This document shows positions 51,301-54,300 of a stretch of DNA of 64,000 nt, piece by piece. Source of the DNA: Escherichia coli O127:H6 str. E2348/69 (GTDB lineage: Bacteria > Pseudomonadota > Gammaproteobacteria > Enterobacterales > Enterobacteriaceae). Positions within the stretch are counted from its first letter, which is position 1. Each line of letters opens with the position of its first letter. The stretch lies in assembly GCF_000026545.1 (NCBI RefSeq), contig NC_011601.1. One strand, given 5' to 3'. Position numbers: made by a program.

Positions 51301-54300
51301 CCTGCAAACGACTGGTCAGCACAAAGTGATCGGTAATGAACGGCAACGCTCCGGCGATTACGCCGATATCAAGACCAAATAACAATCCTGCGACCGCAGC
51401 AGCTACCGAAACAAACATATTCATACGCCGCGTATCCCGCAGAGGACGTGGCGTTAAAGCAGATTCCGTATTGATAGTAACCATTTTTTCCTGCCAGCAG
51501 AGAGTAAGACATAGTGAAAAAATACGTGAACAATTCACACAGGTGTCAGGTCGGAAATAGCATAAATATGGATTAAATTGCTACGACATGTCGTTATGTG
51601 ATGGATATTCCAATTTTCAAATTAAGTTGAATTATTGAGATTATTATTAACTACCTAATTTTAAAGCAGATAAAATTCATAAAGTTCATCAATTGATAAT
51701 TGATATGGATTATTTCATAACCATGATATGGATTATGATGATCTACAGGTATAAAAAACCCTGCCATGCGACCTGTCTCTTGATCAGATCTCCTGATCAA
51801 GAGACTTCATCACCAGGTAACCCTCAACCATATCCTGAAGTCTGAACCAGCCATCCCACATGACTACCCAACCGGGGCGACCGGTGCGTTTGCTGTCATG
51901 CCATCGCCCCAGTTTCGCCAGTTTCAGACAGGCCCATTTCAGTGTCGGCATCTGTGACGGAAGCGGTTTTCCTTCCAGCTTAACCCACAGCAGTTTCCAC
52001 TCTGTCGGCGTCAGTATTTTCTCACAGCTGTCATTTTGTGTTTCTTCACTGATACCGCCCTGCCGCAGGCCCAGCACCCGCACCGCGATAAACGCCTTGA
52101 TAACCACCATGCGCTCGAGGTTATCCCGGGTCTGCATTCGCAGCGATTCCACACATGTACCACCACTTTTCCACGCCTTGTGGTATTCCTCTATCAGCCA
52201 GCGTCGCTCGTAATGGCTGACGATACGTCGCGCATCGGCGGCACTCGCCACTTTTTCTGACGTCAGCAGATGCCAGCAGGCGCCGTCCTCTGCCTGCTCC
52301 CGGCAACAGACATACGTGAGCGGGAGCGCCTGGCCGCTGTTGTCGGGATTTTTTATGCTGACTTCGCTGTAACTGATGAACATCCGGGCCTGGCGGGCTG
52401 CCCGCCCGCCTTTTTGCATCACATTCAGCGTGTGGCTTCCCGCGGTTGCCAGGACTTCCGGCAGTTCGAAGAGCTTGCCGGGTGCTTCTTCCAGCCGGCG
52501 ATTCTGTGCTGCACGCACCACGAAGCGCTGCCCGTGGCTGACTTTATAATGCAGGTAATGCCAGATATCCGCTTCCCGGTCACAGACAGTGATTACCCGT
52601 TTCTGTATCTCCCCCAGCCGTTCGGCCATGCGCTCCGAAGCCTGCTGCCAGCGGTAACTTTCTTTTTCTTCATAGGGACGTTCTTTTCGCTGGTGCTTAA
52701 CACCGTAGGTGTCCGTGGCACGACTCCAGCGCTGCTGTTCGATAAGACCGACTGGCAGGGCGCTGTCGGGGGCGTACATCAGGACAGAGTGAGCCAGCAG
52801 CCCGCGCGTCTTCGGGTTAGTGGTGGTATTCCCCAGGTCATCAGATGCCGTACTGTGACTGAAGTTAATGGTGGTGGTGTCTTCCAGCGCGAGGAGCAGC
52901 GGATGAGCCTCACATGCCCTTACAGTGGCGGTAAATCCGGCTTCGGCAATGGCTTGCGGGGACACAGACGGGTTACGTATCAGGCGGTACGCACCTTCAA
53001 CCTGAGCAGTGGACTGGGATGATTTCACAATAGAAAGACCTGCATGCTGAGCGAGAGAAGAGGCCAGTGACACAAGGCGTCGTGTACGACGCGGATCACC
53101 GAGACGGGCATGTCCAAACTGCTCGTTAGCCCATGAATAACAATCAGAAAGTACCATAACAGACCCGAAGAAAATGAAATATAAGAGAAGATCAACAGGT
53201 GAGGAAAAAGTTCAAAAAATCGCTGCCGGGGAGGAAGGAAACTACCGGATGGAAAGAGTCCCCCTAAAGCAGACTGACAGACATCACAAATCCCCGGGTG
53301 GGGATTTGTGTATAAGAGACAGGCCATGCGACAGGGTCATAAAAGTAAGAGGAATGAATTAACGCGCCAGCCAACCGCCATCCACGGCAATGGTATAACC
53401 ATTCACATAATCTGAAGCGCTGGAGGCAAGGAACACCACCGGCCCCATCAGGTCACTCGGCAGTCCCCAACGGCCAGCTGGAATGCGGTCGAAAATTTCC
53501 GCGCTACGTTGTTCATCTGCCCGCAGTTGTTGAGTATTGTTGGTCGCCATGTAACCCGGAGCTATCGCATTAACATTAATGTTGTGTTTAGCCCATTCGT
53601 TCGCCATCAATCGCGTCACGCCCATCACACCGCTTTTTGATGCGGTATAAGAAGGCACACGGATCCCGCCCTGGAAGGAGAGCATTGACGCGATATTGAT
53701 AATCTTGCCGCCATTGCCTTGCGCGATAAAGTGTTTCGCCGCTGCCTGAGACATGAAGAATACGCTCTTGATATTCAGGTTCATGACATCGTCCCAGTCT
53801 TTTTCGCTGAATTCGAGAGCGTCTTCGCGGCGAATCAATCCGGCGTTATTCACCAGGATATCAATATGACCAAACTCAGCTACCGCGCGATCCAGCAGTG
53901 CTGGAATGCCATCAATCTTTCGCAGATCGGCGGTCAGGCTTAAAAAACGACGCCCCAGCGCCGTGACCTGCTTGATGGTTTCAGTCGGTTCAACGATGTT
54001 AATGCCAACAATGTCACAGCCCGCTTGCGCCAGCCCCAACGCCATCCCCTGGCCCAGCCCAGTATCACAACCAGTGACGACCGCAACTTTACCTTCGAGA
54101 GAAAATGCACTTAAAATCATAACAATACCTTATTCGTTTATGCCCACAACTAGCGCAAATCTTTAACGGCCACATGGTCCATATCATCAAAAACCTGGTT
54201 TTCACCGACCATGCCCCAGATAAAGGTATAAGCTTTGGTTCCGACGCCGGAATGGATCGACCAGCTCGGGGAGATCACCGCCTGCTCGTTATGCATCACA

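What the first reader, a model, noticed from the sequence alone, without database searches (positions are those of the whole stretch)
51773..53322. IS50-like insertion sequence with flanking direct repeat between araE and kduD
A 1550-bp element carries an IS4-family transposase with Tn5-like motifs, a left end identical to the IS50 inside end (ctgtctcttgatcagatct) and a right end close to the outside end. It is flanked by direct repeats of GCCATGCGAC (51763-51772 and 53323-53332), implying a relatively recent transposition into an otherwise empty site. It sits about 290 bp upstream of the araE start and 37 bp beyond the kduD stop, so it could affect araE regulation or kduD 3' processing. The 9 versus 10 bp length of the duplication is ambiguous.
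Basis: seen in the sequence. Interest (0 to 1): 0.5.

Follow-up and report, generated by a model that had tools for sequence, protein, structure and literature searches.

The report
Known ISEc13 element splitting kduD terminator
This is an intact copy of the already named Tn5-like insertion sequence ISEc13 from enteropathogenic E. coli E2348/69, so it is ordinary, but it landed exactly in the loop of the kduD terminator hairpin, as ISEc13 copies tend to do.

Summary
Window 51773-53322 is a 1550-bp insertion sequence with an intact 457-aa transposase on the minus strand. It is flanked by a perfect 10-bp direct repeat, GCCATGCGAC.

It is not new. It is 100% identical to about 30 copies in E. coli E2348/69 that RefSeq annotates as "IS4-like element ISEc13 family transposase". 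Its transposase is 39% identical to Tn5 transposase, with the DDE and YREK residues conserved. One end matches the IS50 inside end 19/19 and the other matches the outside end 17/19.

The insertion occurs only in the three E2348/69-derived genomes; 5398 of 5426 E. coli genomes have the uninterrupted site. That site is the predicted kduD intrinsic terminator, and the duplication is the top of its hairpin.

Beyond the finding, 24 independent ISEc13 sites all read CCCY^N7-10^RGGG. Duplications of 8 bp are commonest, not the fixed 9 bp of Tn5, and most sites are hairpins at gene 3' ends. Marine relatives (about 50% identical) show the same habit and carry a canonical terminator just inside the outside end. 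I found no description of this target rule in the literature I could search.

The element itself is ordinary; the target rule is moderately interesting.

The parts
51773..53322 (-). Complete ISEc13 insertion sequence, 1550 bp, with the transposase reading on the minus strand
   Evidence: 100% identity over 1550 bp to copies in E2348/69 annotated as ISEc13 family. The ends were read directly.
51784..53157 (-). Transposase CDS, 457 aa, intact. Catalytic D93, D193, E323; YREK motif Y316, R319, E323, K330.
   Evidence: ORF. PDB Tn5 transposase match E=7e-84. Residue mapping. Pfam. NCBIfam. Annotated as WP_000244358.1.
51773..51791 (+). Inside-end type terminal repeat, CTGTCTCTTGATCAGATCT. It carries two GATC sites and overlaps the transposase stop codon.
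   Evidence: 19/19 identical to the IS50 inside end fetched from pMAK2. GATC positions.
53304..53322 (-). Outside-end type terminal repeat, CTGTCTCTTATACACAAAT
   Evidence: 17/19 to the IS50 outside end. 17/19 to the engineered mosaic-end sequence, which I supplied from memory.
51763..51772 (.). Target site duplication, copy next to the inside end (GCCATGCGAC)
   Evidence: (repeat D6)
53323..53332 (.). Target site duplication, copy next to the outside end (GCCATGCGAC)
   Evidence: (repeat D6)
53333..53338 (-). 5' arm (GACCCT on the minus strand) of the split kduD intrinsic terminator. It contains the CCCT target half-site.
   Evidence: The empty site in RM14723 gives one terminator-like call, GACCCTGTCGCATGGCAGGGTT+TTTTAT. 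Predicted fold -14.2 kcal/mol, z=-3.5.
51753..51762 (-). 3' arm plus U-tract (AGGGTTTTTT on the minus strand) of the split kduD terminator. It contains the AGGG target half-site.
   Evidence: No minus-strand terminator-like call remains in 51400-53500.
51775..51805 (.). Perfect 13-bp stem with a 5-nt loop, formed by the inside end and an inverted copy of itself within the last transposase codons
   Evidence: inverted repeat I6; fold. The same arrangement is present in all complete marine relatives.
53285..53310 (-). 11-bp stem with a 4-nt loop just inside the outside end (CACAAATCCCC ACCC GGGGATTTGTG). It is a degenerate version of the canonical terminator that the relatives carry at this position.
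   Evidence: inverted repeat I10; fold. All 19 distinct relatives have AAATCCCC-stem/loop-GGGGATTTTTTT here.
53359..54120 (-). kduD, the upstream host gene, co-oriented with the transposase
50066..51484 (-). araE, the downstream host gene, co-oriented. Its AraC half-site TAGCAATTTAATCCATA at 51567-51583 is intact.

Best explanation
This is a full-length, apparently functional copy of ISEc13, a named IS4-family (IS50/Tn5-like) insertion sequence. ISEc13 is present at about 30 identical copies in enteropathogenic E. coli O127:H6 strain E2348/69.

**How it got here (inferred).** A Tn5-type DDE transposase excised a copy and joined its two 3' ends to the target with a 10-bp stagger. Repair of that stagger gave the GCCATGCGAC duplication. 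Cut-and-paste chemistry is inferred from homology to Tn5.

**Where it landed (shown by sequence comparison).** The target was the top of the kduD intrinsic terminator hairpin, GACCCT-GTCGCATGGC-AGGGTT-TTTT on the minus strand. Each strand was attacked immediately 3' of CCCT. This fits a rule seen at all 24 independent ISEc13 sites examined: CCCY^N7-10^RGGG.

**Likely consequences (inferred, not measured).** The kduD terminator is split. kduI-kduD transcription should therefore run into the element in the sense direction of the transposase. The only thing in its way is a hairpin with a weak U-tract just inside the outside end. Some transcripts may continue towards araE, whose own AraC site is intact.
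For: - **Identity.** 100% over 1550 bp to E2348/69 copies annotated as ISEc13; 30 places on that chromosome and 2 on plasmid pMAR2.
- **Intact transposase.** Tn5 homology E=7e-84 and 39% identity. DDE and YREK residues conserved. Three Tn5-type Pfam domains.
- **Recent, lineage-specific insertion.** The junction is in only 3 E2348/69-derived genomes. The uninterrupted site is in 5398 of 5426 genomes.
- **Terminator target.** It is the only terminator-like call in 1 kb of the empty site, on the kduD strand, with a fold of -14.2 kcal/mol. The call is lost in the window.
- **Target rule.** In 24 of 24 sites the flanks read C, C/T, C, T/C/G before the duplication and A/G/C, G, G/A, G, G after it.
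  - The loose motif covers 7.4e-4 of positions in the pre-insertion window.
  - The strict motif occurs at only 3 positions in 62.4 kb. One is this site; the other two lie inside ORFs.
- **8-bp duplications are real.** Two reconstructed empty sites match other genomes 100% over 152 nt.
Against: - The ISfinder reference entry for ISEc13 could not be consulted. The name rests on RefSeq/PGAP annotation of identical copies.
- Activity is inferred from identical multicopy state and insertion polymorphism. It has not been demonstrated.
- No transcript data were available, so loss of kduD termination and read-through are predictions from sequence only.
- The simple scan found no sigma-70-like transposase promoter inside the element.
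Confidence: 0.95

Rival explanations
1. The element is IS50 itself, or a remnant of Tn5.
For: The left end is identical to the IS50 inside end over 19 bp and the right end matches the outside end 17/19. The stop codon sits at the same place inside the end.
Against: Transposase identity to IS50R is only 39%. Lengths differ (1550 versus 1534 bp). blastn finds no DNA similarity beyond the ends and one weak 75-bp match. RefSeq names the two elements differently. No resistance genes or second copy occur in the window.
Confidence: 0.01
2. Position in a terminator reflects only purifying selection. Insertions are random, and only those in harmless intergenic hairpins survive, so there is no real target preference.
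For: Most sites lie at gene 3' ends or between convergent genes. Of the three strict-motif sites in this window, only the intergenic one is occupied.
Against: - Selection cannot fix the cut positions to the nucleotide. All 24 sites have the same bases immediately outside the duplication.
- This includes copies inside coding sequences: ygfK (L095) and a methyltransferase (L113).
- The same hairpins were hit at least twice with different duplication lengths: agp/yccJ and tRNA-Pro/eptB.
- The chance of 24/24 under the loose motif frequency is about 1e-75.
Confidence: 0.04
3. The transposase recognises an extruded hairpin or cruciform (structure) rather than the CCCY/RGGG sequence.
For: - Duplication length varies from 7 to 10 bp, and up to 12 bp in relatives, while the flanking arms stay fixed.
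- Bases at -1/+1 covary as Watson-Crick pairs in 18/24 sites. By my own calculation from the base frequencies, about 11 would be expected.
- Duplication ends pair in 12/24 sites (p=0.007).
- Occupied sites fold far better than motif-matched unoccupied sites (p=1e-8).
- Marine relatives use GC stems with different sequences, such as GCCA/TGGC.
Against: - Several ISEc13 sites are poor hairpins yet keep the motif (L003, L004, L095, L097, L100).
- Positions -4, -2, +2 and +4 are invariant or nearly invariant C or G, not merely complementary.
- The motif-matched controls used the loose motif, so part of the folding difference is built in.
Confidence: 0.3

Closest known systems
IS50 / Tn5 (IS4 family, IS50 subgroup)
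   Same: - Single-ORF DDE/YREK transposase with the Tn5 N-terminal DNA-binding domain and C-terminal dimerisation domain.
- The 19-bp inside end is identical, including both GATC sites and the stop codon. The outside end matches 17/19.
   Different: - 39% amino-acid identity and 1550 versus 1534 bp.
- No Met at the position of the Tn5 inhibitor-protein start, where ISEc13 has Q52.
- Hairpins inside both ends.
- Duplications of 7-10 bp, mostly 8, instead of a fixed 9 bp. A strict CCCY/RGGG flank rule replaces the weak A-GNTYWRANC-T preference of Tn5. That preference is from my knowledge of Goryshin et al. 1998, which is listed in the references of PMC2266710.
IS231A and IS186 (IS4 family elements with GC-run palindromic targets)
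   Same: These are IS4-family transposases that prefer short symmetric G/C-run motifs separated by a few bases, with variable duplication length. From my knowledge, the targets are GGG(N)5CCC for IS231A and G-run/N/C-run for IS186. IS231A insertion specificity is cited in PMC2266710.
   Different: Polarity is reversed here (C-run first, then G-run), so the flanks can pair as a hairpin stem around the duplication. The subgroup is different (IS50). I did not test these elements myself.
IS1272 / TnSha1 (IS1182 family) of staphylococci
   Same: It inserts into hairpins, many of them confirmed transcription terminators, with repeated independent hits on the same hairpin (PMC4923244).
   Different: IS1272 makes no target duplication, deletes part of the hairpin, and shows no primary-sequence consensus. 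ISEc13 makes a duplication and has a clear consensus.
ISRm22 (IS4 family) and IS110/IS3-family elements that target REP palindromes
   Same: Insertion into extragenic palindromes between genes (PMC1525189).
   Different: Those targets are a repeated REP family. ISEc13 sites are mostly unrelated unique hairpins that share only the short motif.

Membership tests
ISEc13 (named insertion sequence) | Near-identical nucleotide sequence over the full length to the reference element | tested here: met
   100% over 1550 bp to E2348/69 copies whose transposase (WP_000244358.1) RefSeq names 'IS4-like element ISEc13 family transposase'. The ISfinder reference itself was not available, so this is by proxy.
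IS4 family | Single transposase ORF without a frameshift, carrying the DDE triad and the Y-2-R-3-E-6-K signature | tested here: met
   Intact 457-aa ORF. D93, D193, E323 and Y316, R319, E323, K330 align to Tn5 D97, D188, E326 and Y319, R322, E326, K333. Family definition from PMC2266710. NF033590 scores 514 bits against a cutoff of 160.
IS4 family | Target duplication of about one helical turn | tested here: met
   10 bp here; 7-10 bp across 24 sites.
IS50 subgroup | Terminal repeats beginning 5'-CT... and a transposase related to IS50R, including the Tn5 DNA-binding and dimerisation domains | tested here: met
   Both ends begin CTGTCTCTT. PF14706 and PF02281 hits. 39% identity, E=1e-96 to IS50R transposase.
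IS50 subgroup | Fixed 9-bp duplication, as in IS50 | tested here: not met
   Duplications of 7 (1 site), 8 (16), 9 (6) and 10 bp (1). Two of the 8-bp cases were verified against uninterrupted sites. A fixed 9 bp is a property of IS50 rather than a formal criterion for the subgroup.
IS50 itself | High sequence identity to IS50 (an isoform level of identity) | tested here: not met
   39% amino-acid identity; no nucleotide similarity beyond the ends and one weak 75-bp match.
Active (not relic) insertion sequence | Demonstrated transposition | not testable with these tools
   Only indirect evidence is available. There are identical multiple copies, strain-specific insertions with intact duplications, and an inversion between two copies with swapped flanks (L009/L010).

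The most novel reading that the evidence does not exclude
ISEc13 and at least 19 marine gammaproteobacterial relatives form a Tn5-like clade specialised for the tops of GC-stem hairpins, mostly intrinsic terminators.

- Each transposon end attacks right after a defined short motif (CCCY in E. coli), while the stagger is elastic: 7-10 bp, and up to 12 bp in relatives.
- The marine members carry a canonical terminator at positions about 16-47 inside the outside end. It would replace the host terminator they split and shield the transposase gene from read-through.
- In ISEc13 this internal terminator has decayed to a hairpin with a poor U-tract.

I found no description of this in the searchable literature. 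ISfinder notes and Figure 3 of PMC2266710 could not be read.
Probability: 0.45. Interest if true: 0.5.

Novelty: already known. Interest (0 to 1): 0.25.

Why it matters
The element itself adds nothing new. It is a catalogued IS in a reference pathogen genome.

Locally, it predicts a strain-specific change in E2348/69. The kduD terminator is lost and kduI-kduD transcription may couple to the transposase gene and to araE. Term-seq or RT-PCR could test this.

More generally, a natural transposase with ends almost identical to those used for Tn5 tagmentation obeys a strict short target rule with an elastic stagger. That makes it a useful contrast for studying how Tn5-type transpososomes choose and bend their targets. 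It may also be a starting point for less random Tn5-type tools.

Tried and rejected
- **E2348/69 genome paper.** The PMC id I recalled for it (PMC2612414) is not held, so I could not read the authors' own IS census.
- **IS4-family review.** Its supplements are held only as image placeholders. The review text says nothing on IS50-subgroup targets.
- **Literature searches.** Searches for ISEc13, or for terminator targeting by IS4/IS50-type elements, gave only passing mentions or other families.
  - For most marine relatives only the outside-end flank is known and duplication length cannot be read.
  - I therefore dropped the idea of an orientation bias relative to the terminator. An A-run on the outside-end side in 60/77 flanks is compatible with a mix of bidirectional and randomly oriented terminators.
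  - In E. coli both orientations occur.
- **Consensus fold of the outside-end hairpin.** RNAalifold was hampered by indels. It gave 4 of 9 pairs with compensatory changes, so I rely on direct reading of the 19 sequences.
- **Tn5-style inhibitor protein.** There is no in-frame ATG at the equivalent position.
- **Promoter scan.** No sigma-70-like promoter was found inside the element on either strand.
- **Composite transposon.** Rejected, because only one copy lies in the window.

Full report
**1. The observation**

The window sequence shows an element from 51773 to 53322. It begins CTGTCTCTTGATCAGATCT and ends GTGTATAAGAGACAG. GCCATGCGAC sits immediately outside both ends, at 51763-51772 and 53323-53332.

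The repeat finder reports this 10-mer pair at the expected 1560-bp spacing (D6). It also finds two perfect hairpins just inside the ends:
- I6, a 13-bp stem at 51775-51805.
- I10, an 11-bp stem at 53285-53310.

One long ORF of 457 aa fills the element on the minus strand, at 51784-53157. Only one copy of either end is present in the 64-kb window.

**2. What it is**

A megablast against 5426 complete E. coli genomes gives 100% identity over all 1550 bp to E. coli E2348/69. There are 30 places on that chromosome and 2 on plasmid pMAR2, annotated "IS4-like element ISEc13 family transposase". In all, 873 genomes carry a copy covering at least 80% of the element. The window is the lysA-araE-kduD-kduI-yqeF region of E2348/69.

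Evidence on the transposase:
- It matches solved Tn5 transposase structures at E=7e-84.
- It carries Pfam Tnp_DNA_bind, DDE_Tnp_1 and Dimer_Tnp_Tn5.
- It scores 514 bits on NCBIfam NF033590.
- I fetched a real IS50 from Tn5 on plasmid pMAK2 for comparison.
  - The transposases are 39% identical.
  - The ISEc13 left end equals the IS50 inside end 19/19.
  - The right end matches the outside end 17/19.
  - The rest of the DNA is unrelated apart from one weak 75-bp match.
- The catalytic D93, D193, E323 and the YREK residues are conserved.
- The Met that starts the Tn5 inhibitor protein is Q52 here.

So this is a distinct, named member of the IS50 subgroup, not IS50.

**3. The insertion event**

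A reconstruction of the site without the element and with one copy of the 10-mer matches 5398 of 5426 genomes contiguously. The left junction is found only in the three E2348/69-derived assemblies. The insertion is therefore specific to this lineage, and the duplication is 10 bp.

In strain RM14723 the empty site is the only terminator-like call in 1 kb. It lies on the kduD strand just after the kduD stop: GACCCTGTCGCATGGCAGGGTT followed by TTTTAT, with a predicted fold of -14.2 kcal/mol.

The element sits in the top of this hairpin. In the window the two arms are 1.5 kb apart, and no minus-strand terminator-like site is called between 51400 and 53500.

kduD, the transposase gene and araE all read on the minus strand. 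Loss of the terminator should let kduI-kduD transcripts enter the element in the sense direction. This is inference only.

The one exact AraC half-site consensus in the window lies at 51567-51583, 190 bp from the element. The known araE control region is probably intact.

**4. A target rule for ISEc13**

I collected other copies with both flanks. Ten came from one genome and twenty from other strains and plasmids. After removing shared sites, 24 independent sites remain.

Just outside the duplication the bases are:
- **Left of the duplication:** C (24/24), C/T (20/4), C (23/24), T/C/G (13/8/3).
- **Right of the duplication:** A/G/C (17/5/2), G (24), G/A (20/4), G (24), G (19).

That is CCCY^N^RGGG(G). 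Duplication length is 7 bp (1 site), 8 bp (16), 9 bp (6) or 10 bp (1, this copy).

Tests of the rule:
- **8-bp duplications checked.** Two 8-bp cases were checked against uninterrupted sites in other genomes and match 100% over 152 nt.
- **Loose motif frequency.** The loose motif covers 7.4e-4 of positions in the pre-insertion window.
- **Strict motif frequency.** The strict motif occurs three times in 62.4 kb. One occurrence is this site and the other two lie inside ORFs.
- **Repeat hits.** Two hairpins were hit at least twice with different duplication lengths: agp/yccJ at 9 versus 8 bp, and tRNA-Pro/eptB at 8 versus 9 bp.
- **Intragenic copies.** Copies inside genes (ygfK, a methyltransferase) keep the motif. 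The rule is therefore not just survival of harmless insertions.

Most sites are clean hairpins at gene 3' ends or between convergent genes.
- Occupied sites fold much better than motif-matched unoccupied sites (p=1e-8).
- The ends of the duplication pair more often than chance (12/24, p=0.007).

In mechanistic terms, each transposon 3' end joins immediately 3' of CCCY on its strand, with an elastic stagger. Whether sequence or an extruded structure is read remains open.

**5. Relatives**

The outside-end 23-mer occurs in 81 stretches from Vibrio, Neiella, Shewanella, Alishewanella, Aliagarivorans, Photobacterium, Rheinheimera and Aeromonas genomes. Their transposases are 47-51% identical to ISEc13's.

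The 77 outside-end flanks show a consistent layout:
- An A-run at -20 to -14, present in 60/77 flanks against 10% in background.
- Then a GC-rich stretch.
- Then an AT-rich stretch.
- Then ...GC at the junction.

This is the picture of a terminator hairpin cut near its top. Complete copies show CCCC/GGGG-type flanks with duplications of 8 to 12 bp.

All 19 distinct relatives carry a canonical terminator at positions about 16-47: AAATCCCC, a variable stem and loop, then GGGGATTTTTTT. The inner stems differ but stay complementary. ISEc13 keeps only AAATCCCC-ACCC-GGGGATTT followed by GTGATG.

All complete members also have the inside end paired with an inverted copy of itself in the last codons.

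**6. Comparison with what is known, and verdict**

The closest comparators are these:
- IS50 has a fixed 9-bp duplication and only a weak target preference (my knowledge).
- IS231A and IS186 use symmetric GC-run targets (my knowledge).
- IS1272 targets terminator hairpins but makes no duplication and has no consensus (PMC4923244).
- ISRm22 and others target REP palindromes (PMC1525189).
- A recent preprint notes in general terms that terminator-like sequences are enriched upstream of ISs.

I found no description of the ISEc13 rule. However, ISfinder and the figures of the IS4 review were out of reach.

The finding as given is a correct description of an already known element, so it scores low. 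The target rule and the built-in terminator in relatives are the only parts that may be new.

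Noticed in passing
L009 and L010 (CP148541.1, 2304717-2307290 and 2365194-2367767): Two ISEc13 copies in inverted orientation lack matching duplications. The left flank of one pairs with the right flank of the other (8-bp repeats CTCCCCAA and CGAACCAG). This indicates an inversion of about 60 kb by recombination between the copies. The pMAR2 copy L094 also lacks a matching duplication.
   Followed up: partly
window 52237-52654, plus strand: There are five terminator-like sites on the strand antisense to the transposase inside the element, against 1.6 expected. 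An example is GGCGGGCTGCCCGCCCGCC+TTTTTGC at 52392-52410. They would stop transcription entering from the inside end.
   Followed up: no
window 53262-53340, minus strand: In the predicted fold of a kduD read-through RNA, the target's CCCU arm pairs with an internal AGGG about 60 nt inside the outside end, enclosing the end hairpin. Every ISEc13 site has CCCY on this side, so this pairing could form at every copy. Its meaning is unknown.
   Followed up: no
L099 and L102 (ibs/sib toxin-antitoxin loci near mdtA and hldE): Two independent ISEc13 copies sit in the hairpins next to Ibs type I toxin genes, in the repeated Sib/Ibs loci. The reconstructed ibsE site matches up to 8 places per genome.
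   Followed up: partly
L108 and L010, right flanks: The same sequence, AGGGGCGAGGGGACCGTTCG, flanks two different insertion sites. This suggests ISEc13 also uses a dispersed GC-rich repeat as a target.
   Followed up: no
statistics: 2991 of 5426 E. coli genomes have some match to ISEc13, but only 873 have a match covering at least 80% of the element. Many matches are at 90-99% identity, so partial or diverged copies are widespread in the species. A 98.1%-identical single copy sits at the ybaY/atl site in the two such strains I fetched (RM14723 and 2015C-4136CT1).
   Followed up: partly
L013, L016, L023, L069 (marine relatives): The marine relatives keep a Met directly before the conserved EGAYR motif, near where the Tn5 inhibitor protein starts in Tn5. 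ISEc13 has Q-V there. ISEc13 may have lost an inhibitor-type regulator that its relatives retain.
   Followed up: no
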